The notes beneath the pieces are model-generated. The model did not search any database. It was not told where the DNA came from and worked only from the letters and a program-made list of their open reading frames with translations. 57,084 nucleotides of DNA, taken from a virus. Lineage: Duplodnaviria > Caudoviricetes. The stretch is taken from positions 1 to 57,084 of the IMG/VR virus record IMGVR_UViG_3300040047_000001; one strand, written 5' to 3'. This document shows positions 1 to 54,146 of this stretch, one piece after another (position 1 is the stretch's first letter; every line of letters begins with the position of its first letter). Made by a program: the position numbers and the translations under genes.

Positions 1-134
1 CACTCGGGGAGTATGGTGGCTTCCGCTACAACGAGATCAATGGTGTGCTTCGCGGCACCCGAACGGCCCTGCGACCGGAGCCGGGTGATGCGTCGGTACC
101 GTCGATTGTGCGACGGATAGATGCGGCGATGAAG
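1..134. repeat. Terminal direct overlap, copy 1 (circular assembly overlap)
   Basis: 1-134 is identical to 56951-57084 except G/T at position 8/56958; a reading frame runs through the junction. Confidence 0.95.
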
Positions 135-19914: not shown

Positions 19915-19937
19915 AGCATTACTCACCATTGGGAAAG

Positions 19938-19975
19938 GGAATGGCCCCGGTCGCCTCCACCGGGGCCATTCCTTT
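19938..19975 (+). terminator. Terminator ending the late operon
   Basis: GGAATGGCCCCGGT / ACCGGGGCCATTCC perfect 14-bp stem plus TTT. Confidence 0.85.
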
Positions 19976-19991
19976 GCCCTGATTGAATAGG

Positions 19992-20068: not shown

Positions 20069-20117
20069 TGGCGTAGCTTTGTTGTTGTAAGGGGAACAAC
20101 AAAACTAGACAAGGGGA
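20069..20117 (+). promoter_or_regulatory. Early-type promoter and conserved leader P1
   Basis: TGGCG-TAGCTT-N5-TTGTAAGG...GACAAGGGGA (20108-20117). Confidence 0.8.
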
Positions 20118-20658: not shown

Positions 20659-20704
20659 TGGCGTAGGATGACCTTGAACAACAAACTAGATACCGACAAG
20701 GGGA
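20659..20704 (+). promoter_or_regulatory. Promoter and conserved leader P2
   Basis: TGGCG-TAGGAT...GACAAGGGGA (20695-20704). Confidence 0.78.
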
Positions 20705-21509: not shown

Positions 21510-21559
21510 TGGCGTAGGGTAACTGGTGTAAGGCTTCTCCAAAAAACTAGACAAGGGGA
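21510..21559 (+). promoter_or_regulatory. Promoter and conserved leader P3
   Basis: TGGCG-TAGGGT-N6-TGTAAGG...GACAAGGGGA (21550-21559). Confidence 0.8.
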
Positions 21560-22692: not shown

Positions 22693-22739
22693 TGGCGTAG
22701 GATGGTTCTTGTAAGGCGATAGCGAAAACGACAAGGGGA
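22693..22739 (+). promoter_or_regulatory. Promoter and conserved leader P4
   Basis: TGGCG-TAGGAT-N5-TTGTAAGG...GACAAGGGGA (22730-22739). Confidence 0.8.
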
Positions 22740-24159: not shown

Positions 24160-24202
24160 TGGCGTAGAGTAATTGTTGTAAGGCGAGGCGACGACAAGGG
24201 GA
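24160..24202 (+). promoter_or_regulatory. Promoter and conserved leader P6
   Basis: TGGCG-TAGAGT-N5-TTGTAAGG...GACAAGGGGA (24193-24202). Confidence 0.8.
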
Positions 24203-24209
24203 GCGCGAG

Positions 24210-24452
24210 ATGCCGAAGATCGAGATGCTGAACGACGAAGGCAACGTGACCGAAGTTGTGTTGGATGTTCATCGTTGCGTCGGCGATTCGACCGAATGCG
24301 AGCCGGACGGCGCGATGTGCGAAGATTGCGGCCGTTATGCGACGGCTGAAACTCCAGTCTATGTTTGGACCACGCGCCTGCTTGCCAGACTGACCTACTT
24401 CGCCTGCAGTCGCTGCCTCGCGGCCGACGCCTATGCCCGCCTGATCAACTAG
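24210..24452 (+). CDS. Small zinc-finger protein
   Basis: CEDC...CSRC; conserved leader. Confidence 0.75.
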   Translation: MPKIEMLNDEGNVTEVVLDVHRCVGDSTECEPDGAMCEDCGRYATAETPVYVWTTRLLARLTYFACSRCLAADAYARLIN

Positions 24453-24468
24453 ACAAGGGGAGCGCGAG

Positions 24469-25593
24469 ATGACCACCACCGTTCGCAAGGGGGCCGGACG
24501 TCCGGCTGCGACCGAAAAATCCAACCGGCACGCGCAGCGCACCCCGCTTCCGCCGAAGGCCGGAGCCGTTCAGGATGCGAAAGACGTCATCACCGAAGTC
24601 GTCGAAAAGAACCAGACGATCGGCGCCGAGATGGCGAGCCGGAAGCCTCAGGCGAAGCGCAACGCGCAGGATCGGCGCCTGGCGGCTGGTGCGATTCGCG
24701 AGGCGCCCGTGGAGGAGCTGCCGAGCGCGAAATACGGGATGATGACGGTCGTGGAGCTTCGGAAGATCGCGGGCGGGCTGCTGGTGAAGGGCGCTCGCTC
24801 GATGAAGAAGGGTGATCTGCTCACCGCCATCTTAGAGGCAGAGACTGCAGCCGCCAAGGCGCAGACGCCGGAACGCGTAGTGCGGGCAGAGGCGAAGGTG
24901 ACCCAGGCACTCACGAAGGACACGAAGGCTGCTGCGATCGATGCCGCGTTCGACGCCTTCCACGCGTTCGGCTCACCGCAGGACGCGGAAGTGACGAAGG
25001 AGCTGGCACAGGACACCACCTCGAAGAGCGGCGCGAAGGCGCAGACTTTCCTCGCCGAGGCGGCCCGGCTCGGCTGGGACTCCAGCGGCTACGACATCCG
25101 TCCCGGGGACCGCGCCAGCTTGACCGTGAAGCGGGGAAGCGAGTCGATCGATATCGAGTGGCTCGCCGGAGTCTTCCAGGGGGACACGTGCTACTACCAC
25201 CACGTCGGGCGGACCGCCATCAAGCTCCGGAACGCCAGCGCAGCGAAGATGCGGATGGCCATCCCGCCCGCTCAAGCTGACCAGGAGGCCCAGAAAGTGA
25301 CTGCACACAAGTCGGTCCGCCCAAAAGCAGGAAAGGCGCCTAGCACCATGCGTAGCCTGCCGTTCACCGAAGCCTCGCTGGACCAGGAGGTGCTGGACGC
25401 ACTCTACGGGAAGGAGATCACCTGGACCAACCGCATCTCGGGTGAGCCGCAGACTGAGCGCGTGCCTGGGCTCGCCCGGAAGCCGAGCCATGCACCCCGC
25501 ATCAGCGATGGGCCGGACGGCCGCGTGATCAACTTCGTAGGCTCTGCTGGCTTCACCACCGTACTGCTGTCCCAGATCACACGAGTTCGCTAG
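24469..25593 (+). CDS. Hypothetical protein with Rho-N/HeH-like nucleic-acid-binding motif
   Basis: MTVVELRKIA...ARSMKKGDLLTAIL; leader GACAAGGGGAGCGCGAGATG identical to that of the previous gene. Confidence 0.75.
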   Translation: MTTTVRKGAGRPAATEKSNRHAQRTPLPPKAGAVQDAKDVITEVVEKNQTIGAEMASRKPQAKRNAQDRRLAAGAIREAPVEELPSAKYGMMTVVELRKIAGGLLVKGARSMKKGDLLTAILEAETAAAKAQTPERVVRAEAKVTQALTKDTKAAAIDAAFDAFHAFGSPQDAEVTKELAQDTTSKSGAKAQTFLAEAARLGWDSSGYDIRPGDRASLTVKRGSESIDIEWLAGVFQGDTCYYHHVGRTAIKLRNASAAKMRMAIPPAQADQEAQKVTAHKSVRPKAGKAPSTMRSLPFTEASLDQEVLDALYGKEITWTNRISGEPQTERVPGLARKPSHAPRISDGPDGRVINFVGSAGFTTVLLSQITRVR

Positions 25594-26164: not shown

Positions 26165-26209
26165 TGGAGTAACGTCTTTGTTGTAAGGCAAATTCAGACG
26201 ACAAGGGGA
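26165..26209 (+). promoter_or_regulatory. Promoter and conserved leader P7
   Basis: TGGAG-TAACGT-N5-TTGTAAGG...GACAAGGGGA (26200-26209). Confidence 0.75.
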
Positions 26210-28833: not shown

Positions 28834-29285
28834 CGAACGTGCATGACTGGACGCGACCCCCAGTCCAGAGGCGCAAGAAGAGCAAGCTGTTCGCCGTCGT
28901 ACTAATATCGCTCGGAGTGTTCGTGCTTCTCGTGTGCGGGGCAGGCGGCTACCTGATCCTGTCTGCCCCGACCCGTGTCACAGCCAGCAACCCCAACTCC
29001 CCCATGGAAACGCCGCTGTCGCGGTCCCCGCTGGCTCCGGCTCCTGCGCAGAAGGTGAAGGGCTCCATCAGCGACGGCGAGTGGACTGCTGGCGCAGACT
29101 TCTCGCCAGGCCCGTACGAAACCACCACACAGAGCAGCACATGCGTCTGGCAGGTAACGACAGGCGAAGGGGATAGCGTTCAGTACATCGATCCCGGGCA
29201 TGTCGGCCCTGGGCACTACAAGTTCACATTCAAGGCAGGCCAGACACTCCACACACTCGGCTGCGGCACATGGGTGAAGCGGTAG
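28830..29285 (+). CDS. Membrane-anchored extracytoplasmic protein
   Basis: One TM helix, then DGEWTAGADFSPGPY...CVW...GCGTW (actinobacterial lipoprotein-like domain). Confidence 0.7.
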   Translation: MTNVHDWTRPPVQRRKKSKLFAVVLISLGVFVLLVCGAGGYLILSAPTRVTASNPNSPMETPLSRSPLAPAPAQKVKGSISDGEWTAGADFSPGPYETTTQSSTCVWQVTTGEGDSVQYIDPGHVGPGHYKFTFKAGQTLHTLGCGTWVKR

Positions 29286-29509
29286 CGCTGCTAGCCTTCG
29301 CGCTCGCGCTCTCCCTTGCGTTTGTGGTCGGCGGATATGCGGGGCGATCAGGCGAGCGGAGGCTAGTTGCCGAAGGACGGAGCTCGCTCCGGGGCATTAC
29401 GCCGATCGCAAATTACGAGGCGCAACTACGCAGGTCTGTTGGCGCACCAAGGATGCACCCCGATCCAGAGAATGCACCGAGGCAAAGACGACTTAGGTTC
29501 CACAGATAA
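29270..29509 (+). CDS. Small membrane protein
   Basis: N-terminal TM helix; fills the operon. Confidence 0.5.
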   Translation: MGEAVALLAFALALSLAFVVGGYAGRSGERRLVAEGRSSLRGITPIANYEAQLRRSVGAPRMHPDPENAPRQRRLRFHR

Positions 29510-29547
29510 AAGTTTGAACTTTCCTCAGACTTTATCGACCCATCTCA

Positions 29548-29558
29548 TGGCATAGGGT
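29548..29558 (+). promoter_or_regulatory. Probable promoter for the replication region
   Basis: TGGCA-TAGGGT variant of the TGGCG-TANNNT motif in an AT-rich gap; canonical AGGAGG SD follows. Confidence 0.6.
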
Positions 29559-29600
29559 AAGGTTGCCCTGACGCCAAGGAATTCAACAGGAGGCACAGAA

Positions 29601-30152
29601 ATGGCACGTCCAATCAGCCGGGCCGCGCAGCGTGCGCTGGAAATCCCAGAGGACTACGCACCCTACGCGACCAAGGCACCGACCGATCTCCAGAGGCGGT
29701 TGGGTGACTGGATCATGGAGAAGACCGGCGTCACCTTCGTCACCAAGAAGGAAGAGGCAGCATACCGCGAGGGTGTTCGACTCGCCGTCGCGCTCCGCAT
29801 GAAGTTCCAGGCATCCCCGGAGAACCAGGATGCCATCGCCGAGCGGGCGGAGAACAAGACGGCAGAGGACCTGGAAGCCGCCAAGACCATGCCGGCTCCG
29901 GGAAAGAAGTCTTCATCGCGCCGTACTCCTCCCCGCGACCCGGAGGCTGCTCCGGCGAAGGCCACCAAGGCCACGGCCCGGAAGACGGCACCCGCCAAGG
30001 CTGCGAAGACGGCTCCGGCGAAGGTTGCTGTTGTGGAGCCGGAGACGGACGACGACACCGAGGCCGTTACCGAACCTGTGAAGGCGACTGGGCGCCGTCC
30101 GGCCCGTCGTCCAGCACGCAACGCCAGTGCTGACGCGGAAGTTCCTTTCTAG
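29601..30152 (+). CDS. Hypothetical protein with Lys/Ala-rich (histone-like) tail
   Basis: APAKATKATARKTAPAKAAKTAPAK; ends EVPF. Confidence 0.8.
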   Translation: MARPISRAAQRALEIPEDYAPYATKAPTDLQRRLGDWIMEKTGVTFVTKKEEAAYREGVRLAVALRMKFQASPENQDAIAERAENKTAEDLEAAKTMPAPGKKSSSRRTPPRDPEAAPAKATKATARKTAPAKAAKTAPAKVAVVEPETDDDTEAVTEPVKATGRRPARRPARNASADAEVPF

Positions 30153-30207
30153 GCGTTCTGGATGCGCGCGCCGATGTGATTGGTCGATCGCTTCGAGCAG
30201 ACGCGCA

Positions 30208-30243
30208 GGGTGGGGAGTCGGACGGACGACCGACTCCCCACCC
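30208..30243 (+). terminator. Perfect 14-bp stem-loop (terminator or RNA-stabilising hairpin)
   Basis: GGGTGGGGAGTCGG / CCGACTCCCCACCC; no U-tract. Confidence 0.6.
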
Positions 30244-30253
30244 ATCCCCTCGC

Positions 30254-30322
30254 GCAGAGCAGAGGTTGCCGGTGGCTAATTCAACTTCCCCTTGTCGACG
30301 CTACCGGCAGCCCCTACCCTGC
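30254..30322 (+). ncRNA. Candidate antisense hairpin RNA 1 (loop complementary to the GACAAGGGGA leaders)
   Basis: Stem 30261-30276 / 30300-30315 with two G-U pairs, 23-nt loop TAATTCAACTTCCCCTTGTCGAC. Confidence 0.55.
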
Positions 30323-30347
30323 ACGAAGGAACCCAAGGAGGTCAGTT

Positions 30348-30725
30348 GTGGGAGCTGCTGGATCAAAAGTCAAGTACAGAGGCGTTAGTGCTGCCGTCCG
30401 TCAGTACTTCGCCGAACGCCCGGGTATGGAAGTGCCTCTGAGTGAGCTGAAAGCCTACCTGAAAAGAGACGCGAACAAAGAGGTTCCGAGCGCTGTGGTC
30501 CACAACTCTATCAGCTACCTCAAGAACCAGCAGAGCTTCCAGATCGAGACGATAGCGCTCGGGCGGATCTGGCGCTACCGGCCGGCTGCTGTTGTTGCCC
30601 CGCCCCAGAACCCAGACGCCGTCCTGTGCCACAAGCGGATGTTCGAAGAGTTGGCGACTACCAAGAACGGCGATCTCCTGATCCAGGACGAGAATGGCAA
30701 GGTATACCGAGCGGAGGAGTTGTGA
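30348..30725 (+). CDS. Probable winged-HTH DNA-binding protein
   Basis: Start reassigned to GTG 30348 (AAGGAGG SD); helical core then GRIWRY wing. Confidence 0.6.
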   Translation: MGAAGSKVKYRGVSAAVRQYFAERPGMEVPLSELKAYLKRDANKEVPSAVVHNSISYLKNQQSFQIETIALGRIWRYRPAAVVAPPQNPDAVLCHKRMFEELATTKNGDLLIQDENGKVYRAEEL

Positions 30726-30777
30726 TCCTGGCCAATCTGATCAACATAGAACTGGTCGGCGCCACAGAGATCCACCG

Positions 30778-30909
30778 ATGATGCCTACACCAAGGAGCCA
30801 ACCGATAATGCGAGACTTCTTCGGGCGGGTGCTGATGTGCCTTGTCGCGCTCTCCGCCGGTATCTGCTTCGGCATCGGCATCGAGCAGCACTTCAAGGGG
30901 TGCCCGTGA
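30778..30909 (+). CDS. Small membrane protein
   Basis: Single hydrophobic helix; start uncertain. Confidence 0.4.
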   Translation: MMPTPRSQPIMRDFFGRVLMCLVALSAGICFGIGIEQHFKGCP

Positions 30910-31226
30910 ACCGCAACGACGCGCTATCGCTAGTTCGGAAGTATGGCTCGGCGATCCTGGAGCGTCGCTCGGCGGACTCGGCCGAGCACGGCATGACGCT
31001 CGTGGAAGCCCTCGCGGCGCCTCTGACGAATCCGATGCGAATCTACTTCCGTACCAACCCGTCTACGGTTGCCTTCCGGCACTTCGACGGTGTAGCCATC
31101 GTACCGCGCGTCGGCGACCAGATCGCTCTCGGTGGATTCCGGTGGAAGGCCACCGAAGTCGTCTGGGACTTCGAGAGCGAAAGTCCTGTCGAGGTCGACG
31201 TATTCCTGGAACTGGTGGTTCGGTAG
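30906..31226 (+). CDS. Hypothetical protein
   Basis: GTGA coupling; VPRVGDQI motif. Confidence 0.6.
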   Translation: MNRNDALSLVRKYGSAILERRSADSAEHGMTLVEALAAPLTNPMRIYFRTNPSTVAFRHFDGVAIVPRVGDQIALGGFRWKATEVVWDFESESPVEVDVFLELVVR

Positions 31227-31227
31227 C

Positions 31228-32352
31228 ATGGCTAGGGTTCCCATCATCCGGACGTCGGAGCGCCGTGCGTTCAAGCGCTGTCCGCAGATGTGGTGGTGGT
31301 CCTGGAGGCAGGGTCTCGTTCCGCTCGGGCGGATAGCTCCCGCGTTGTGGCTCGGGACTGGAGTTCACATCGGGCTCGCGGGTTGGTACTGCGGGCCTGG
31401 TCTGAAGCGCGGACCGCATCCAGCCGAGACGTTCGATCAGTGGGCTGCGGATGAAATCCAGTACATCAAGACGTCCGACAGGTTCGGCAATGGCAAAGAG
31501 GCTGTCATAGAGGAGAAGCTCATCCCCGGACGAGAGCTCGGGATTGCGATGCTCGAAGGCTATGTCAAGCAGTACGGCCGCGACGACTCCTGGAGCGTGA
31601 TCGAGCCGGAGCGTTCGGGCCAGGTGGATATCCTGGACCCCGACGACCCAGGCAAGCTACTCGCCATCTATGGCTTCACCTATGACCTCGTATATCGTGA
31701 CCTCGCGACTGGTCGGGTTATGTTGGGGGAGCACAAAACGGCCGCCAGCATCAAGGTGACGCACCTGCCGCTGGACCCGCAGGCAGGTAGCTACTTTCTC
31801 GTTGCCCAACCGCACCTTCGGCAAGAAGGTCTCATCGGCCCAAAGGAACGGCTCTATGGGATCACATACAATTTCCTCCGTAAGGCGCTCCCGGATCCTC
31901 GCCCGATCGGACCGACCGGCCACCGGCACAACAATCCCCTCAAGGCAGACTACATAAAAGCGCTCGCCGATGTTGACCACAGAAGCGAAGCAGAGCTGGG
32001 AAAGATGAAGCTGGAAGCCCTGGAGACCGTGGCGAACGCCCGAGGTATCCAGGTCTGGGGCGAGGTGTCCAAGAAGCAGCAATCGCCGCTCTTCCATCGC
32101 GAAGAGGTGCACCGGACACAAGCGGAGCGCGCGACGCAGTACGGGCGGATCCAGACAGACGCCGTGCTGATGGACCAGTACCGATCGGGCGCGCTCCTCC
32201 TCACCAAGAACGAAACGCCTGACTGCACGTTCTGCCAGTTCTTCGATATGTGCATCCTGGATGAGGGCACAGGAGATGCGCAGGAGTACCGCGAGTCCAT
32301 GTATGAAGTCCGTGATCCGTATGCGGATCACCGCAAGAGCACGGAGGAGTAG
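31228..32352 (+). CDS. RecB/Cas4-like PD-(D/E)xK exonuclease
   Basis: TSERRAFKRCP, GTGVH, DLV...EHKT, C-x2-C-x5-C tail. Confidence 0.88.
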   Translation: MARVPIIRTSERRAFKRCPQMWWWSWRQGLVPLGRIAPALWLGTGVHIGLAGWYCGPGLKRGPHPAETFDQWAADEIQYIKTSDRFGNGKEAVIEEKLIPGRELGIAMLEGYVKQYGRDDSWSVIEPERSGQVDILDPDDPGKLLAIYGFTYDLVYRDLATGRVMLGEHKTAASIKVTHLPLDPQAGSYFLVAQPHLRQEGLIGPKERLYGITYNFLRKALPDPRPIGPTGHRHNNPLKADYIKALADVDHRSEAELGKMKLEALETVANARGIQVWGEVSKKQQSPLFHREEVHRTQAERATQYGRIQTDAVLMDQYRSGALLLTKNETPDCTFCQFFDMCILDEGTGDAQEYRESMYEVRDPYADHRKSTEE

Positions 32353-38451: not shown

Positions 38452-41400
38452 AGTTTGTCAGCCTCCACCACCACTCCACCTACTCCTTCATGGATGGGTT
38501 CGGCTCTCCGGCTGCGCATGTGGAGCGCGCGGCGGAGCTAGGAATGGGAGCGCTCGCGCTCACCGAGCACGGCAACGTATCGTCGCACGTCCAGCTGGAG
38601 AAGGCCGCAAACAAGGCCGGCATCAAACCCATCTTTGGCCTGGAGGCATACACAGCGCTTGGCCCGGCCGAACGCCGCAAGTTCCACATGACGATCCTCG
38701 CCATGAATGAGACGGGATACCAGAACCTTATGGCGATCGTCGGCCGCAGCTACGCGGAAGGGTTCTACCAATGGCCAACGGTGAGCGGACGGATGCTCGC
38801 GGATCACCACGAAGGTCTTATCGTGACTTCGGGTTGTTCAGACTCGCTCCTTGCGTGCTCTCTGCTGGGCGGGAAGAGTATTGCGGTCGAGGATGCATCC
38901 TACGACCGAGCGAAGCGCACGGCGCTAGGGTTCAAGCGTCTACTGGGGGATCGGTACTACCTGGAGACGCAGATGTTTCCGGAATTGGAACGGACCCGAA
39001 CGATCAACGAGGCATACGAGAGGCTGAGCGGTGAGACTGGAATCCCCCTGGTTTCGACTGCTGATGTTCACTACCCACAAGCCGACGACAACGAGATGCA
39101 GGTCATCTTGCATGCGGCAGGTCGTGGTGCGGGGAGCGTGGCGGCTCAGGAGGCTGGATGGGAGTACAGCATCCGTCTCACTCACCCTATCTCTGACCGC
39201 GTGGCGCTCGATCGAGCGATGGGCACTGGTCTCAGCAAAAAGGCTGCAATCCAATCACTCCGAACAACCGACGACATTTCGGCTCGCTGCTCGGTGGTCC
39301 TACCGAAGGCCGAACGCCTCCGGTATCCGCTTGATGAAGGGGTCGCGACGGGGCTCGATCTAATCTGGAAGTGGCTGCGCGAGGGTTGGGCCTATCGAGT
39401 CCGTCAGGGCAACCGGCACATGGTAGCGCGGCAGGCAGAGTATGTCCGGCAGCTGAAGCATGAGATGGATCTCATTGCGTCCAAGGACTTCATCGACTAC
39501 TTCCTCATGACCTCGGACATCATCACCTACGCAAAGGAGCACGGCTGCGCGGTCGGGCCGGGCCGTGGATCGTCGGCTGCCTCGCTCGTGTGCTACCTAC
39601 TCCGCATCACAGAGGTCGATCCGCTCCAGCATCCGCTGATGCTCTTCGAGCGCTTCATCGCACCCGACCGCGACGACATCCCAGACATTGACACAGACTT
39701 CGATGACGAACGACGGCCGATCGTCCGGGAGTATGCCGTCCGGAAGTACGGCGAGAACCGTGTTGGCAATATCGCCAACTACACGAAGTACCGGGGAAAG
39801 TCGGCCCTTAAGGACGTCGGTCGTGTGTTCCCGCGAATCCCCAAGTACGCCATTGATACTGCTGCGGCGATGGTGATCGAGCGCTCGGGCGGAGACTCCC
39901 GGGCGGATGCCGGACTGATGGACACCGTCGAGATGTTCCCAGCGGTGAAGGCCATCTTCGACAAGTACCCTGACCTTTGGAAGGCGACCCGTCTGGAGGG
40001 GAACTACCGGGGCATGTCAGTCCATGCTGCCGGCCTGGTGATCGCGAATACCCCGATCCACGAGATCTGCGCGCTCTACACGCGCGAGCGGATCGATAAG
40101 GATACCAAGGAAAAGACTGCCGTAACGGTGGTCTCTGTTAACAAGAAAGATGCCGCCTATCTCGGGCTGATGAAAGCGGACTTCCTTGGACTCTCCACGA
40201 TGGGGTTGATCCGGATAGCGCTTGAGCTTGCGGGCCTGACCTTGGAGCAGTTGTACGCGCTCCCACTAGACCTTCCGGAAGTCGTTGAAGCCTTTACCCG
40301 CAACGATGTTATCGGCATCTTCCAGTTCGAAGGCCGCGCGACCCGCATCATCAACCGCGAGGTGAAGCCAACCAACTTCGGCGAGATCGTTGATATCAAT
40401 GGACTCTCGCGACCCGGCCCGCTCTTCTCCGGAACGACGGCAGACTACATCGACATCAAGCACGGCAAGAAGCAGCCCGAACTACTCCACCCGCTCTGGG
40501 ACCGCATCACGCAGTCGACCAAGGGGCAGGTGATCTATCAGGAGCAAGTTCTGGCTGCCCTCAAGGAGATCGGCAAGATCCCGGTTACCAGAGTCGGCGA
40601 GATCCGCCGCATCATATCCCAGAAACTCGGCGAGGCGCAGTTCAACGAGAGCGCAGGCGACTTCGTGCTAGGCGCAGCAGAGCACGGTATCTCCAAAGAA
40701 GACGCGATGCACATGTGGGGCCGTCTGGTGACGTCTGCCACGTACTCATTCGTGTATGCCCACGCAGCCTCATACGCCATCATCGGCTACTGGTCGATGT
40801 GGCTGAAGACGCACCACCCGGTCGCGTTCTACACGGCCGCGCTGCGGAAGTCGGAGAAGGAGCATTGGCCAGCGCTCATCAAAGATGCCTCGCGGCACGG
40901 CGTGGAGGTGCGCGGGATCGACCCGCCGGTCTCAGGGAGGGACTGGGAGCCGGACGGCCGGGGCGGCATCGTTGCCGGTTGGCTCCAGGTGCCGGGGATC
41001 GGCGGAGCGAAGGCAAAGGCTGTGATGGAGTACCGCGACACCGTCCATGGTTTGGGCACAGACTATGAAATGGAGCTGGAAGACCTGATCAACGTCAACG
41101 GCATCGGTCCGAAGATCATGGCCGAGATCGCTGCCGTAGACCAGACCGACCCGTTCGGTCTGCTGAAGATCGAGCAGACTCTCCGTCTGGTGAAGAATGC
41201 GCTCCGTGACGGCGAGATTCCCCTGCCTCCCCCTACCCACAACAGTGAAGAGATCCTAGACGCAAGACCTGCAGCACGCGTAGTCTTCATAGGCTTGGTG
41301 CGGCTGAAGGAGTACAAAGACTTCATCGAGGATGAGCGAGCCCGAACGGGCGATGATCTGGAGGCAATCAAAGCACGGATGAAGGACCCGCACCTGCCGA

Positions 41401-51583: not shown

Positions 51584-51620
51584 TGGAGCACCAGCTAATC
51601 AAGACCGACAAGGGGATCGA

Positions 51621-52072: not shown

Positions 52073-53667
52073 CTCTGACGGCCGTCACCGAGCTGGAGTT
52101 GGAGCGCGAGTGGCGAGACGCGCTTGGCTGGCGGCCGCATGCGATCCAACGCGAGATCCTGGAAGACCGGACGCGCTTCCAGGTACTGGCCGCCGGACGG
52201 CGCTTCGGGAAGTCGCAGACGGGCGGGCACAAGCTGCTCCCGAAAGCGTTCTCTGCCTATGCCGAGAAGCCGACACTGGACGCGAACGGACAGCAGCGCC
52301 GGTACTGGATCGTCGGCCCGGAGTACTCCGATGCTGAGAAGGAGTTCCGGGTACTGTACAACGGCCTGAAGCGTCTGGACGTTCCGTTCGATCGCCCAGG
52401 GACCTACAACAACCCCAACAATGGCGATATGCACATCTCGCTGTGGGATGGCGCGTTCATGGTGGATGCGCTTTCCGCGAAGTACCCGGAGACGCTGGTT
52501 GGTGAAGGACTCTCGGGTGTGGTGCTTTCTGAGGCTGCCAAGCTCAAGGAGTCGGCGTGGACGAAGTACATTCGCCCGACGCTCGCCGACTTCAAGGGGT
52601 GGATGTATGCGGGCTCCACACCCGAAGGCCGGAACTGGTTCTACCGGGCTTGGGAGGCGGGGCAGGATCCACTTCGCCGGGAGTGGAAGAGCTGGCGCGC
52701 TCCCGCGTGGGCCAACCCGTACGTGTACCGCGAGATGGGTGTAGCCGGTGCGGAAGCCGACGCAGCAGTCCGACTGCTCCAGACACTCGTCCGGAAGCGG
52801 ATGCTGCCAGAGCGGTTGCCGATCGACTCCGGCGCTCGCTGGCTCATTACCGATGAGCAATGGGCCAAAGCGACCGACAAGACCTGGGAGAAGGTCGGCA
52901 GGGCGCTCGGACTGGACCCCGAGATCGTGGCGCTCGCGCTCGATCTGTCGGAAGAAGTCTTCAACCAAGAAGAGGCAGCCCTCTTCAATGAGTTCGTGGG
53001 TCGCGTCTTCAAGGAGTTCGATGAAGAGATCCATGTAGCCGACCTGAAGTACGATCCAGCTTGGAAGACGTACGCCGCGCTGGACTATGGATTCACCAAC
53101 CCATTCGTCTGGCTGCTGATCCAGGTCGATCCGTTCAACACCAACATCCGGATCCTGGATGAGTACTATGAGCGGGGGCGGACGACTCGCGAGGCAGCAG
53201 CCGAGATTCAGAGTCGCGGACTCGCACCAACCAGCATCTTGGAGTTCTACCCGGATCCCGCTGAGCCAGACCGCTCCCGCGAGCTGTCGGGCCTGCTTCA
53301 GCTTCGGCCTGCCGGCGGAACGGGCGGATTGATCGCGGATCGGCTAGAGTGGATCCGGCGAAAGCTGAAGCCCGACCCCAAGATAGCACACCTCAACACG
53401 AGTCATGAGGAATGGGTCCCACAGCTACAGATCAACAGACGTTGCAAGGAGACCATTCGTGAGTTCAACGTCTACCGCTACCCGAAGACGGCGGAAGAGG
53501 CAGCAGCCCGGAACCAGGAAGCGCCAGAAGCTCCGCTCAAGAAGGACGACCACACTCCGGAAGCGCTCGGGCGATTCATGATCGGACACTTTGGCTCGCC
53601 GTGGGTGGATCTGTCTCCGCCGCGCCAGAGCCGGGCACGGGTCGGTCGGCGAGGGGCTGCAAGGTAG
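52069..53667 (+). CDS. terL: Terminase large subunit
   Basis: PHAIQ, AGRRFGKS, VVLSEAA, STPEG, LDYG, KDDHTPEAL. Confidence 0.95.
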   Translation: MTLTAVTELELEREWRDALGWRPHAIQREILEDRTRFQVLAAGRRFGKSQTGGHKLLPKAFSAYAEKPTLDANGQQRRYWIVGPEYSDAEKEFRVLYNGLKRLDVPFDRPGTYNNPNNGDMHISLWDGAFMVDALSAKYPETLVGEGLSGVVLSEAAKLKESAWTKYIRPTLADFKGWMYAGSTPEGRNWFYRAWEAGQDPLRREWKSWRAPAWANPYVYREMGVAGAEADAAVRLLQTLVRKRMLPERLPIDSGARWLITDEQWAKATDKTWEKVGRALGLDPEIVALALDLSEEVFNQEEAALFNEFVGRVFKEFDEEIHVADLKYDPAWKTYAALDYGFTNPFVWLLIQVDPFNTNIRILDEYYERGRTTREAAAEIQSRGLAPTSILEFYPDPAEPDRSRELSGLLQLRPAGGTGGLIADRLEWIRRKLKPDPKIAHLNTSHEEWVPQLQINRRCKETIREFNVYRYPKTAEEAAARNQEAPEAPLKKDDHTPEALGRFMIGHFGSPWVDLSPPRQSRARVGRRGAAR

Positions 53668-53708: not shown

Positions 53709-54059
53709 ATGTCCGTTCAGGCAACAACCGTTCTGGCGAGCTCTGCCCGGACGACTTCGGGTAACTCCACCACCGTGACTGTGCCCGACTGGTCGCCAGC
53801 CGATCCGCGCTCGGTTTCCGTCTACCAGAACGTCACCGCCCAGTCCGGCACCACGCCGACACTCGACATGCAGGTGCAGTGGTCGCCGGACGGCACCACG
53901 TGGTACTCCGCGTCCGATACCTTCACACAGGTGGCTGCCGCGACGGGCACGGCCGTCAAGCAGTTCGCCGTCAAGGCGCCGTACTGGCGGCTGAGCTACA
54001 CGATCGCCGGTACCACCCCCAGCTACACCTTCGACGTCAAGGCCGTGTACCAGGCTTAG
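53709..54059 (+). CDS. Small beta-rich protein, probably virion-associated
   Basis: AAGGAG SD; QWSPDGTTWY...APYWRLSY; between terL and portal. Confidence 0.7.
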   Translation: MSVQATTVLASSARTTSGNSTTVTVPDWSPADPRSVSVYQNVTAQSGTTPTLDMQVQWSPDGTTWYSASDTFTQVAAATGTAVKQFAVKAPYWRLSYTIAGTTPSYTFDVKAVYQA

Positions 54060-54070
54060 ACTCCAAAGAC

Positions 54071-54146
54071 GACTCCCTCGCCCACGGTTGACCACCGCAC
54101 TTCATCCCCTTGTCGGCGGGCAGGTCCTGGGGCGAGGGAGTCTTTT
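54071..54146 (+). ncRNA. Candidate antisense hairpin RNA 2 / terminator with anti-leader loop
   Basis: 13-bp outer stem GACTCCCTCGCCC / GGGCGAGGGAGTC plus TTTT; inner GACC/GGTC and CCGC/GCGG; apical loop ACTTCATCCCCTTGTCG. Confidence 0.55.

What the first reader, a model, noticed from the sequence alone, without database searches (positions are those of the whole stretch)
30208..30322. Hairpin RNA 1: tandem stem-loops with the anti-leader 10-mer in a 23-nt loop
The ~195-nt gap between two genes holds a perfect 14-bp hairpin (30208-30243) followed by a 16-position stem (30261-30276 / 30300-30315, one mismatch). Two positions pair only as G-U on the + strand, which argues for an RNA structure rather than a DNA operator. 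The loop TCCCCTTGTCG can pair over 11 nt with the CGACAAGGGGA leaders (20694, 22729, 24192, 26199). It lies downstream of the promoter-like site at 29548, so it would be made after the cassette array. It also sits just before the SD of a probable HTH gene, so it may couple early shut-off to expression of that regulator.
Basis: partly seen in the sequence, partly recalled or inferred. Interest (0 to 1): 0.8.

Follow-up and report, generated by a model that had tools for sequence, protein, structure and literature searches.

The report
Phage hairpin mirroring early gene leaders
A folded element between two phage genes shows at its tip the exact mirror image of the short tag placed before eight of the phage's genes. 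Related phages carry their own matching tag-and-mirror pairs, so it is probably an RNA that controls translation of the tagged genes.

Summary
The 195-nt gap 30153-30347 is non-coding. It holds a perfect 14-bp hairpin (30208-30243) and a second hairpin (30261-30276 / 30300-30315). The 23-nt loop of the second carries TCCCCTTGTCG, the exact reverse complement of the start-associated 11-mer CGACAAGGGGA.

That tag, allowing one mismatch, precedes eight start codons on the + strand. A second, unrelated hairpin (54071-54142) shows the same anti-tag at its tip.

New here:
- 10 complete or near-complete relatives, found through TerL, each have their own start-associated tag (six sequence classes with the window).
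- 9 of these 10, plus the window, carry a reverse complement of 10 nt or more of their own tag inside a strong hairpin.
- Own-genome matches of 11 nt or more occur in 9 of 11 genomes. Cross-class matches of that length occur in 0 of 88 comparisons.
- In Cluster K mycobacteriophages, whose SAS tags have been unexplained since 2011, the single reversed SAS of Anaya sits in the apical loop of a conserved hairpin.

Best reading (about 0.5): an anti-Shine-Dalgarno RNA loop that pairs with the tagged leaders.

Caveats:
- No expression data exist.
- The timing and coupling claims are untested.

This scan has noted similar phage hairpins on other DNA before.

The parts
30153..30347 (+). 195-nt non-coding spacer between gene 29601-30152 and gene 30348-30725
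   Evidence: Homologues P0002 and P0003 begin at the position of GTG 30348. No Rfam family matches.
30208..30243 (+). Hairpin 1: perfect 14-bp G+C-rich stem, 8-nt loop, no T-run after it
   Evidence: I8; -31.2 on + / -32.1 on -; no terminator-like site called
30261..30315 (+). Hairpin 2 core: 16-position stem (1 A.C mismatch, 2 G.U on +) enclosing a 23-nt loop
   Evidence: -26.4 kcal/mol on +
30287..30297 (+). Anti-tag TCCCCTTGTCG, the exact reverse complement of the start-associated 11-mer, at the tip of hairpin 2
   Evidence: opening energy 1.99 kcal/mol; mean P unpaired 0.75
30244..30332 (.). Extended 33-position inverted repeat around hairpin 2: 24 WC, 2 G.U on + only, 7 G.U on - only
   Evidence: -41.8 on +, -58.6 on -; of 10 hairpins compared, this is the only one that strongly prefers the minus strand.
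30335..30341 (+). Canonical Shine-Dalgarno AAGGAGG of the downstream gene (GTG 30348)
30348..30725 (+). 125-aa protein with an N-terminal winged-helix-like fold; no Pfam family
   Evidence: pLDDT 69.6, H-E-H-H-E-E; best Foldseek E 7.8e-3; PadR, Fur, BlaI and LOTUS-type hits, none at E <= 1e-3
29601..30152 (+). Upstream 183-aa gene (phrog_20596). Syntenic homologues lie between the helicase and Cas4 in relatives.
29548..29558 (+). Promoter-like TGGCATAGGGT, one mismatch from the cassette motif TGGCGTAnnnT
54071..54142 (+). Second anti-tag hairpin: perfect 13-bp outer stem, 46 nt enclosed, followed by TTTT. ATCCCCTTGTCGG at 54104-54116 lies at the tip.
   Evidence: I18; opening 3.0 kcal/mol
20107..20117 (+). 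Start-associated tag AGACAAGGGGA before ATG 20125 (DUF2637 protein), in a promoter-leader cassette
20694..20704 (+). Tag CGACAAGGGGA before ATG 20712 (DUF6011 protein), in a cassette
21549..21559 (+). Tag AGACAAGGGGA before ATG 21565 (DUF2786 protein), in a cassette
22729..22739 (+). Tag CGACAAGGGGA before ATG 22741/22750, in a cassette
24192..24202 (+). Tag CGACAAGGGGA before ATG 24210, in a cassette
24451..24461 (+). Tag AGACAAGGGGA before ATG 24469 (Rho_N-domain protein), internal to an operon
26199..26209 (+). Tag CGACAAGGGGA before ATG 26217 (HNH endonuclease), in a cassette
51606..51616 (+). Tag CGACAAGGGGA before ATG 51621, the gene just upstream of terL. It is 13 nt complementary to the 54104-54116 loop.

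Best explanation
Hairpin 2 (30261-30315) is one copy of a phage-encoded anti-tag element. It is transcribed as part of + strand mRNA and displays UCCCCUUGUCG at its tip. That sequence can pair with the extended Shine-Dalgarno tag [C/A]GACAAGGGGA, which precedes eight genes: six early promoter-leader cassettes, one internal gene, and the gene before terL. Pairing would cover the ribosome-binding site. It would therefore lower translation of the tagged class, and possibly create a double-stranded target for RNases. The hairpin at 54071-54142 is a second copy at the end of the terL operon; it could act in trans, or in cis on the 51606 leader of its own message.

Shown: the structures, the exact complementarity, the predicted openness of the loop, the co-variation of tag and anti-tag across relatives, and the enrichment at hairpin tips.

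Inferred: that the + strand RNA is the active form, that pairing happens in the cell, that the effect is repression, and when it acts.
For: 1. Exact 11-mer complement in two unrelated intergenic hairpins. The core 9-mer complement occurs twice on the gene strand against 0.15 expected; 3 of 300 shuffles reach 2.

2. The loop is predicted open. Opening the 11-mer costs 2.0 kcal/mol (site 1) and 3.0 (site 2); opening the leaders costs 2.7-8.3. Site-1 loop-leader duplexes are -19.8 to -23.5 kcal/mol, against a genome-wide mean of -10.4, sd 3.3.

3. Relatives. All 10 whole relatives examined have their own start-associated 9-mer (5-14 copies).
- 9 of the 10, plus the window, carry a contiguous reverse complement of 10 nt or more of their own tag consensus inside a hairpin.
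- The own-genome match is 11 nt or more in 9 of 11 genomes, against 0 of 88 cross-class comparisons.

4. Hairpin-tip context. 10 of 11 anti-tag sites have at least 12 enclosing pairs and are at least half unpaired, against 249 of 2500 random positions.

5. Strand preference across the family. The + strand is clearly more stable in 8 of 11 anti-tag hairpins. Excluding the window's site 1, G.U pairs number 29 on + and 11 on -.

6. Independent parallel in Cluster K.
- Anaya's single reversed SAS lies in the 10-nt apical loop of a hairpin, preceded by a second perfect hairpin.
- The region matches 135 phage records.
- Of the 15 I aligned, 10 keep the anti-SAS loop. There are 3 compensatory pairs and many + strand G.U pairs.

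7. The mechanism has an experimentally shown precedent: a UCCCCUG motif in the icaR 3'UTR pairs with the SD, blocks initiation and gives an RNase III substrate (PMC3868564, abstract read).
Against: - No transcript data. No sequencing run was listed, and the closest homologue's contig could not be fetched.
- For this particular hairpin, the extended stem favours the minus strand (-58.6 against -41.8 kcal/mol; 7 positions pair only as G.U on -).
- Co-variation is equally expected if a DNA-binding protein reads the tag on duplex DNA.
- Duplex energy alone is not specific. Two non-leader windows (about 40491-40511 and 53621-53641) score like the leaders for the site-1 loop, and the 46-nt site-2 loop does not single out the leaders at all.
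- One relative (G010, 84% complete) has no anti-tag of 10 nt or more.
- Two further 9-mer complements (G001 48339, G003 59355) are not in loops.
- In Cluster K, SirPhilip, Amgine and Yuna keep 15-20 SAS copies but have lost the anti-SAS loop. The loop is therefore not obligatory for a tag system.
- In most relatives the anti-tag sits just upstream of the first early cassette, not at this hairpin's position. This hairpin is analogous to theirs, not positionally orthologous.
Confidence: 0.5

Rival explanations
1. DNA-level operator. A phage DNA-binding protein recognises the duplex motif GACAAGGGGA in either orientation. The sense copies sit downstream of the early promoters, and the two reversed copies are extra operators. 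The hairpins are ordinary terminators or stabilisers, and the motif's place in their loops is incidental.
For: - All sites are intergenic, and the conserved part extends 4-5 nt beyond what 16S pairing needs.
- Co-variation of tag and reversed copy across relatives is also what a changed protein specificity would give.
- A winged-helix-like protein is encoded immediately downstream.
- Stoperator-type asymmetric sites are known in Cluster A phages (named in PMC3203893, passages read).
Against: - The sense copies keep a constant short distance to start codons and supply the only SD there, which argues for an RNA-level role.
- 10 of 11 reversed copies sit at hairpin tips, against 10% of random positions. 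A duplex-DNA site has no need of this.
- Stems differ between genomes while the loop tracks the tag.
Confidence: 0.17
2. Minus-strand element. The functional form of 30244-30332 is a minus-strand RNA, or single-stranded DNA, hairpin. It would have a 22-pair outer helix and a tip showing the sense tag AAGGGGAA. It could act as a decoy for whatever binds the tag (30S subunits, a protein, or the 54105 anti-tag loop), or as a barrier to antisense transcription.
For: - The extended hairpin is -58.6 kcal/mol on the - strand against -41.8 on +.
- All 7 non-Watson-Crick positions of the outer stem are G.U on - and A.C on +.
- It is the only one of 10 hairpins in the window with a large preference for the - strand.
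- It is one of 2 of 11 anti-tag hairpins in the family with that preference.
- The z-score is -8.07 on - against -5.86 on +.
Against: - Every recognisable gene in the window is on the + strand.
- No cassette-type promoter motif occurs on the - strand, and no sigma-70-like site was called there (I also read the sequence).
- The inner 13-bp stem has 2 G.U pairs on + that are mismatches on -.
- The rest of the family leans to the + strand.
- The 7:2 split is a post-hoc observation.
Confidence: 0.12
3. Local cis element only. The tandem hairpins end or stabilise the 29601-30152 message and tune translation of the next gene. The C-rich tracts (30242-30249 and the loop) would pair with the nearby AAGGAGG SD. 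Complementarity to the distant leaders would be a by-product.
For: - The element lies between a stop codon and the next SD.
- One near-optimal fold pairs CC.UCC (30242-30246) with GGAGG (30337-30341).
- By inspection of the sequence, the loop could form 5+2 pairs with CAAGGAGG.
- Site 2 looks like a terminator with a TTTT tail.
Against: - Pairing with the local SD is much poorer than the perfect 11-13 nt match to the tagged leaders.
- No T-run follows hairpins 1 and 2, and no terminator was called.
- This reading does not explain why the anti-tag tracks each genome's own tag.
Confidence: 0.1
4. Relic without function. The reversed tags are leftovers of inverted duplications of cassette leaders that happened to land in hairpins.
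For: - Loop and leader share nothing beyond the tag.
- The position differs from that in relatives.
- Some Cluster K phages have lost the loop.
Against: - It recurs in 10 of 11 related genomes with class-specific sequences.
- It is enriched at hairpin tips.
- It is conserved across many Cluster K phages.
Confidence: 0.06

Closest known systems
Start-associated sequences (SAS/ESAS) of Cluster K mycobacteriophages (Pope et al. 2011, PMC3203893; passages read)
   Same: - An asymmetric 10-13-nt motif containing an SD core, placed a few nt before 8-19 start codons of non-structural genes.
- It is conserved beyond what 16S pairing needs, and it is often linked to a promoter-bearing upstream element.
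- Nearly all copies are in one orientation. The paper notes a single reversed copy per K1 genome that is not linked to a gene start.
- I find that the reversed copy in Anaya sits in the apical loop of a conserved hairpin, next to a second hairpin.
   Different: - The sequence differs: GGGATAGGAGCCC against GACAAGGGGA.
- The phages are unrelated; the best DnaE identity to any listed phage record is 51%.
- The papers I read (PMC3203893, PMC11373665 and PMC12699233, passages only) call the role of SAS unknown and do not describe an anti-SAS hairpin.
- Some K phages keep SAS without the loop.
icaR mRNA 3'UTR anti-SD motif of Staphylococcus aureus (PMC3868564, abstract read)
   Same: A C-rich UCCCC motif in a 3' untranslated region pairs with a Shine-Dalgarno region. 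This blocks the initiation complex and gives an RNase III substrate. The 54105 loop and the 51606 leader may lie on one message, as in icaR.
   Different: - It is bacterial, a single gene, and acts within one mRNA.
- Here a whole class of eight leaders is matched by two loops on other messages.
- Nothing has been shown experimentally here.
c4 antisense RNA of phages P1 and P7 (Rfam RF01695 recalled; role cited from PMC8198154 passages)
   Same: A phage-encoded structured RNA whose loops pair with the ribosome-binding region of phage genes. From my own recall, it is made from the same transcript as its target.
   Different: - No Rfam match at the gathering or at a lax threshold.
- c4 controls one operon in lysogeny of a temperate enterobacterial phage.
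- Here there is no sequence or structural likeness, the targets are many, and I saw no integrase in the ORFs I scanned.
C-rich-loop regulatory RNAs that target SD sequences (S. aureus RNAIII/Rsa RNAs, alphaproteobacterial CcsR/Cuckoo RNAs); recalled, not checked in a call
   Same: Hairpin loops rich in C and U that pair with G-rich ribosome-binding sites of several mRNAs.
   Different: Those are host-encoded stand-alone sRNAs with their own promoters and terminators. This element sits inside a phage intergenic spacer, and no promoter of its own was found.

Membership tests
Start-associated sequence (SAS) systems of actinophages | Asymmetric short motif repeated many times in one genome, far above chance | tested here: met
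   10 sites against 1.64 expected; 0 of 100 shuffles reach 10. Eight exact 9-mers on the + strand.
Start-associated sequence (SAS) systems of actinophages | Copies lie a few nt upstream of start codons, include the SD core, and are conserved beyond it | tested here: met
   All 8 sense copies have a start codon within about 10 nt. AAGGGG serves as the SD, and the conserved part extends 4-5 nt upstream of it.
Start-associated sequence (SAS) systems of actinophages | Restricted mainly to non-structural genes, with nearly all copies in one orientation and rare reversed copies not at gene starts | tested here: met
   7 of 8 sense copies lie at 20.1-26.2 kb and one lies before the terL-linked gene. 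The 2 reversed copies are not at starts.
Start-associated sequence (SAS) systems of actinophages | The Cluster K consensus GGGATAGGAGCCC | tested here: not met
   The motif here is [C/A]GACAAGGGGA. This is the same kind of system, not the Cluster K family itself.
Anti-tag hairpins of the TerL-related phage group (defined here) | Reverse complement of 10 nt or more of the genome's own start-associated tag on the gene strand | tested here: met
   Window: 11 and 13 nt. Own-genome match of 11 nt or more in 9 of 11 genomes, against 0 of 88 cross-class comparisons.
Anti-tag hairpins of the TerL-related phage group (defined here) | The anti-tag lies at the tip of a strong hairpin | tested here: met
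   Window sites have 27 and 24 enclosing pairs and are 73% unpaired. The family is 10 of 11, against 249 of 2500 random positions.
Anti-tag hairpins of the TerL-related phage group (defined here) | Position just upstream of the first early cassette | tested here: not met
   Relatives: 130-1400 nt before the next tag-bearing start, which is the first of the early array in G001, G002, G004, G005, G006, G007 and G008; G003 and G009 have tags upstream of the site too. The window's sites are at 30.3 and 54.1 kb. The hairpin at the equivalent place (19931-19979) has a CGCCUCC loop.
Anti-tag hairpins of the TerL-related phage group (defined here) | The structure favours the gene (+) strand | tested here: inconclusive
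   The inner stem has 2 G.U on +, the extended stem has 7 G.U on -. The family is clearly + in 8 of 11; the window's site 1 is an outlier.
c4 antisense RNA (Rfam RF01695) | Match to the Rfam covariance model | tested here: not met
   No family reaches the gathering score in the window. At E <= 10, only generic hairpin hits far below their cut-offs appear.
Intrinsic (Rho-independent) terminator | G+C-rich hairpin with a short loop followed by a T-run | tested here: not met
   No terminator-like site was called at 30208-30332, and the tails carry no T-run. The 54071-54142 hairpin does have a TTTT tail, but it encloses 46 nt.
3'UTR/5'UTR anti-SD pairing of the icaR type | UCCCC-type motif downstream of a coding region that is complementary to an SD | tested here: met
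   UCCCCUUGUCG lies 135 nt after the stop at 30152. AUCCCCUUGUCGG lies 45 nt after the stop at 54059.
3'UTR/5'UTR anti-SD pairing of the icaR type | Pairing occurs in the cell, blocks 30S binding and gives an RNase III substrate | not testable with these tools
   No RNA data. No sequencing run was listed.

The most novel reading that the evidence does not exclude
Tag and anti-tag form a general, phage-private translation code in actinophages. Each phage marks a gene class with its own extended Shine-Dalgarno tag. It also encodes, at the tip of an mRNA hairpin, the matching anti-tag RNA that switches the whole class off, or ties message ends together, at a set time. This would explain the start-associated sequences of Cluster K mycobacteriophages, unexplained since 2011. 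The different tag classes would be naturally orthogonal regulator-target pairs.
Probability: 0.35. Interest if true: 0.85.

Novelty: new variant of a known kind. Interest (0 to 1): 0.72.

Why it matters
Start-associated sequences have been catalogued in hundreds of mycobacteriophages since 2011 without a known partner or role. A matching anti-tag at a hairpin tip makes that question testable with simple gel-shift, toeprint and reporter experiments in Mycobacterium smegmatis phages. The anti-tag is found in this uncultured phage, in 9 of 10 relatives with class-specific sequences, and in Cluster K1.

If the pairing works, it is a compact way for a phage to time the translation of a whole gene class without a protein regulator. 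The several tag classes would also be ready-made orthogonal RNA switches for actinobacteria.

Tried and rejected
Searches that led nowhere
- Close relatives of the locus. Megablast and blastn of 29400-31300 against phage records gave only short, unrelated hits. tblastn of the two flanking proteins gave nothing, or distant Streptomyces phage hits.
- The search for related loci with the two flanking proteins, with alignment A1 and with Cas4 gave no relative, or relatives at only 31% identity. In genome contigs, A1 gave only a weak partial hit in a Flavobacteriales MAG, judged irrelevant.
- DNA patterns for the cassette leader found one coding-region chance match in viral contigs. They found one unrelated metagenome contig with no blastn similarity to the window.
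- Sequencing runs: none was listed and no RNA holder was listed.
- Rfam: no family matched.

Considered and set aside
- A minus-strand small ORF after the reversed tags. At 30287 it would be TTG-AAT-TAG only. At 54105 it would be a 22-codon frame with no spacing from the SD. Both are from reading.
- Translation of the spacer as part of ORF 30180-30725 is contradicted by the homologues' starts.
- Duplex energy as a specificity test is not discriminating in this G+C-rich genome.
- The nearest TerL relatives (L024-L037) are short contigs without the early region. L025 has a long hairpin with a CCUCCC tip between the terL-adjacent gene and portal, but its tags cannot be seen.
- MAFFT alignment of five class-B hairpins was not structure-aware enough for pair counting. 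I did not run the count of structure pairs and rely on the individual folds.

Literature
- Searches were.
- I saw passages of PMC3203893, PMC12699233, PMC11373665, PMC9262239 and PMC8198154, and the abstract and outline of PMC3868564. None describes an anti-SAS hairpin.
- Supplements were not opened. Figure S3 of PMC3203893 lists the reversed sites of Adephagia, Angelica and CrimD, and I did not see it.
Full report
WHAT THE WINDOW IS. The window is a whole IMG/VR virus record of 57,084 bases, estimated 88% complete. It is about 61% G+C, and every recognisable gene is on the + strand. Gene content and order are those of a siphovirus-type actinophage: early cassettes, SNF2 helicase, Cas4-type exonuclease, RecA-like protein and DnaE polymerase, then terL, portal and structural genes. 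The best DnaE identity to any listed phage record is 51%, to Nocardia phage P3.1. No tRNA gene and no Rfam family is present.

THE OBSERVATION.
- The gap between the stop at 30152 and the GTG at 30348 is 195 nt.
- Hairpin 1 (30208-30243) has 14 perfect pairs.
- Hairpin 2 (30261-30276 / 30300-30315) has 16 positions, with one A.C mismatch and two + strand G.U pairs.
- Its 23-nt loop (30277-30299) holds TCCCCTTGTCG at 30287-30297.
- The 201-nt region folds better than shuffles on both strands: z = -5.86 on + and -8.07 on -.

The gap is not coding. The two homologues of the downstream protein (P0002, 58% identity; P0003, 36%) are 113 aa long and begin where GTG 30348 begins. AAGGAGG lies 6 nt upstream of that GTG.

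THE TAG. CGACAAGGGGA, allowing one mismatch, occurs 10 times against 1.64 expected; 0 of 100 shuffles reach 10.
- Eight copies are on the + strand, each with a start codon within about 10 nt. AAGGGG is the only Shine-Dalgarno-like sequence there.
- Six of them lie in repeated cassettes: TGG[C/A]GTAnnnT, then usually TGTAAGG, then the tag.
- The other two copies are on the - strand, so they read TCCCCTTGTCG on the + strand. One is the loop of hairpin 2.
- The other is at 54105, at the tip of an unrelated hairpin: a perfect 13-bp outer stem at 54071-54083 / 54130-54142, 46 nt enclosed, and a TTTT tail. It lies after the terL-linked genes and before portal.
- The core 9-mer complement is expected 0.15 times per genome strand and is seen twice; 3 of 300 shuffles reach 2.
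- Both loops are predicted open. The 11-mer costs 2.0 and 3.0 kcal/mol to open, and UCCCCU costs 0.26 and 0.0.
- The complementarity stops exactly at the borders of the conserved tag for site 1 (11 nt). For site 2 it reaches 13 nt against the 51606 leader.

The inverted repeat around hairpin 2 is longer than described: 33 positions, 30244-30276 against 30300-30332.
- 24 positions are Watson-Crick.
- 2 positions, both in the inner stem, pair as G.U on the + strand only.
- 7 positions, all in the outer 20, are A.C on the + strand and G.U on the - strand.
- The extended hairpin is -41.8 kcal/mol on + and -58.6 on -.
- Of 10 hairpins I compared in this window, 8 fold better on +, hairpin 1 is about equal, and only this one strongly prefers -.

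I found no minus-strand promoter. So I cannot say that a minus-strand RNA exists, but the asymmetry is real and unexplained.

RELATIVES.

TerL found 170 relatives, of which 80 were kept (47-78% identity). The nearest are short contigs without the early region. I fetched ten long records whole (G001-G010; TerL 53-57% identical). The first five, the only ones I compared for this, share the order early genes, helicase, homologue of the 29601 gene, Cas4.

One uniform rule was applied to all 11 genomes: the most frequent purine-rich 9-mer with at least 5 copies, at least 80% of them followed by ATG or GTG. It found a start-associated tag in every genome:
- GACAAGGGG in the window;
- (C)GAAGGGACC in G001, G003, G004, G006 and G007;
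- GAAGGGAAC in G002;
- GAGAGGGAA in G005 and G008;
- CCGAAGGAGCC in G009;
- GACGGAAGG in G010.

TAG AND ANTI-TAG CHANGE TOGETHER.
- Each of G001-G009 has, on the gene strand, a contiguous reverse complement of 10 nt or more of its own tag consensus.
- In a matrix of every consensus against every genome, the own-genome match is 11 nt or more in 9 of 11 genomes. The exceptions are G008 with 10 and G010 with 9.
- No comparison between different tag classes reaches 11 (0 of 88); a few reach 10.
- At the 9-mer level, shuffles expect 0.15-0.24 copies per genome in the six genomes tested.
- The sites are structured. 10 of 11 anti-tag sites (two in the window, one each in G001-G009) have at least 12 enclosing pairs within 90 nt and are at least half unpaired in the minimum-energy fold. 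Of random positions in the same genomes, 249 of 2500 meet this. The one miss is G006, where the anti-tag can also form a small palindromic hairpin.
- The stems differ between genomes while the loop tracks the tag.
- The + strand is clearly the more stable in 8 of 11 hairpins, about equal in G008, and less stable in G006 and in the window's site 1.

Results against the picture:
- G010 (84% complete) has no anti-tag.
- Two extra 9-mer complements (G001 48339, G003 59355) are not in loops.
- In most relatives the anti-tag hairpin lies 130-1400 nt upstream of the first early tag, not where the window's copies are. The hairpin at that place in the window (19931-19979) has a CGCCUCC loop instead.

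AN INDEPENDENT PARALLEL. Pope et al. 2011 (PMC3203893, passages read) described 13-nt start-associated sequences before 11-19 genes of Cluster K mycobacteriophages. [quoted passage not shown] They left open whether an RNA or a protein reads the motif. Later papers still call the role unknown (PMC11373665 and PMC12699233, passages).

What I found in Cluster K:
- I scanned the right 30.8 kb of Anaya. It has 15 forward copies and 1 reversed copy with up to 2 mismatches, against 0.58 expected.
- The reversed copy lies in a gap without annotated genes. It forms the 10-nt apical loop CCUCCUAUCC of a hairpin, 9 nt after another perfect 16-bp hairpin. This is the same tandem layout as in the window.
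- The 121-nt region matches 135 phage records, 133 of them over at least 80% of its length.
- I fetched 14 of these, chosen to span the identity range, and aligned them with Anaya.
- 10 of the 15 keep CCTCCTATC in the loop, 2 have CCTCCTTCC, 1 has CTTCCCTTC, 1 has an unrelated loop, and 1 has lost the hairpin top.
- The consensus fold has 24 pairs, 3 of them with compensatory changes, and many + strand G.U pairs.
- The five phages with altered loops still carry 15-20 forward SAS copies. The loop is therefore dispensable for having a tag system.

HOW IT MOST LIKELY WORKS. The only direct relation between leader and loop is base complementarity (RNA with RNA) or identity as a duplex-DNA site. 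Three things favour the RNA reading:
- the sense copies sit at ribosome-binding distance from start codons;
- the reversed copies sit at hairpin tips;
- the stems vary while the loops follow the tag.

The anti-tag loop, carried on + strand messages of the replication and packaging regions, would pair with the tagged leaders, cover the SD, and reduce initiation. The 54105 copy might act within its own message on the 51606 leader. This is what the icaR 3'UTR does with a UCCCCUG motif (PMC3868564, abstract).

None of this is shown. There are no transcripts. The direction of the effect and its timing are inferred. That regulator's product has a winged-helix-like N-terminal fold at modest confidence, with only weak structural matches.

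COMPARISON AND NOVELTY. The element behaves like known anti-SD RNAs: the icaR 3'UTR, c4 of P1/P7, and C-rich-loop sRNAs. It belongs to none of these families; there is no Rfam match and no sequence likeness. The tag side matches every defining feature of a start-associated-sequence system except the Cluster K consensus itself. In my searches and in the passages I read, I found no description of an anti-SAS hairpin.

Earlier notes of this scan describe similar phage hairpins on other DNA. One of them links such an element to Cluster K tags. Those notes are leads, not evidence. The tests reported here are my own.

I rate this a new variant of a known kind. The chance that the RNA-pairing mechanism is right is about 0.5.

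Noticed in passing
window 19931-19979: A strong 20-bp hairpin at the boundary between the late genes and the first early cassette, which is where relatives carry their anti-tag hairpin. Its 7-nt loop is CGCCUCC, containing the canonical anti-SD core CCUCC rather than this phage's anti-tag.
   Followed up: partly
window 29562-29600 and 30262-30285: The leader of gene 29601 (AGGTTGCC ... GGAATTCAAC then AGGAGG) shares AGGTTGCC and AATTCAAC, in the same order, with the 5' arm and loop of hairpin 2. Relatives have a second promoter type, TTCGTAGGAATTG, placed directly before their tag, so those leaders must be very short.
   Followed up: partly
window 24192-24212 and 24451-24471: Two tags share 20 nt (GACAAGGGGAGCGCGAGATG) although the genes behind them differ. 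The second lies inside an operon, without a cassette promoter.
   Followed up: no
L025 2845-2961: In a TerL relative (71% identity, 5.6-kb contig), the gap between the terL-adjacent small gene and portal holds a long hairpin (-81.6 kcal/mol in its 141-nt context) with a CCUCCC-containing tip. It sits at the position of the window's 54071-54142 hairpin. Its tags are not on the contig.
   Followed up: partly
L008 29804-29900 (Mycobacterium phage Anaya, record 59,803-59,899): [quoted passage not shown] The second hairpin displays the reversed SAS. Several records annotate a hypothetical protein across the region.
   Followed up: yes
G003 record, bases 2-11 (-) and 27-36 (+): A relative whose own tag is GAAGGGACC carries two exact copies of the window's GACAAGGGGA in inverted orientation at the very end of its record.
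   Followed up: no
G003 about 28902-28925; G004, G006 and G007 equivalents: In class-B relatives the anti-tag hairpin is followed at once by a small conserved hairpin, GCCCGUG(n5-6)CCGGGC. This is another tandem arrangement.
   Followed up: no
window 30242-30249: A C-rich tract, CCAUCCCC, just after hairpin 1 can pair with the downstream SD GGAGG (30337-30341) in a near-optimal fold. This is a possible local SD-masking alternative.
   Followed up: partly
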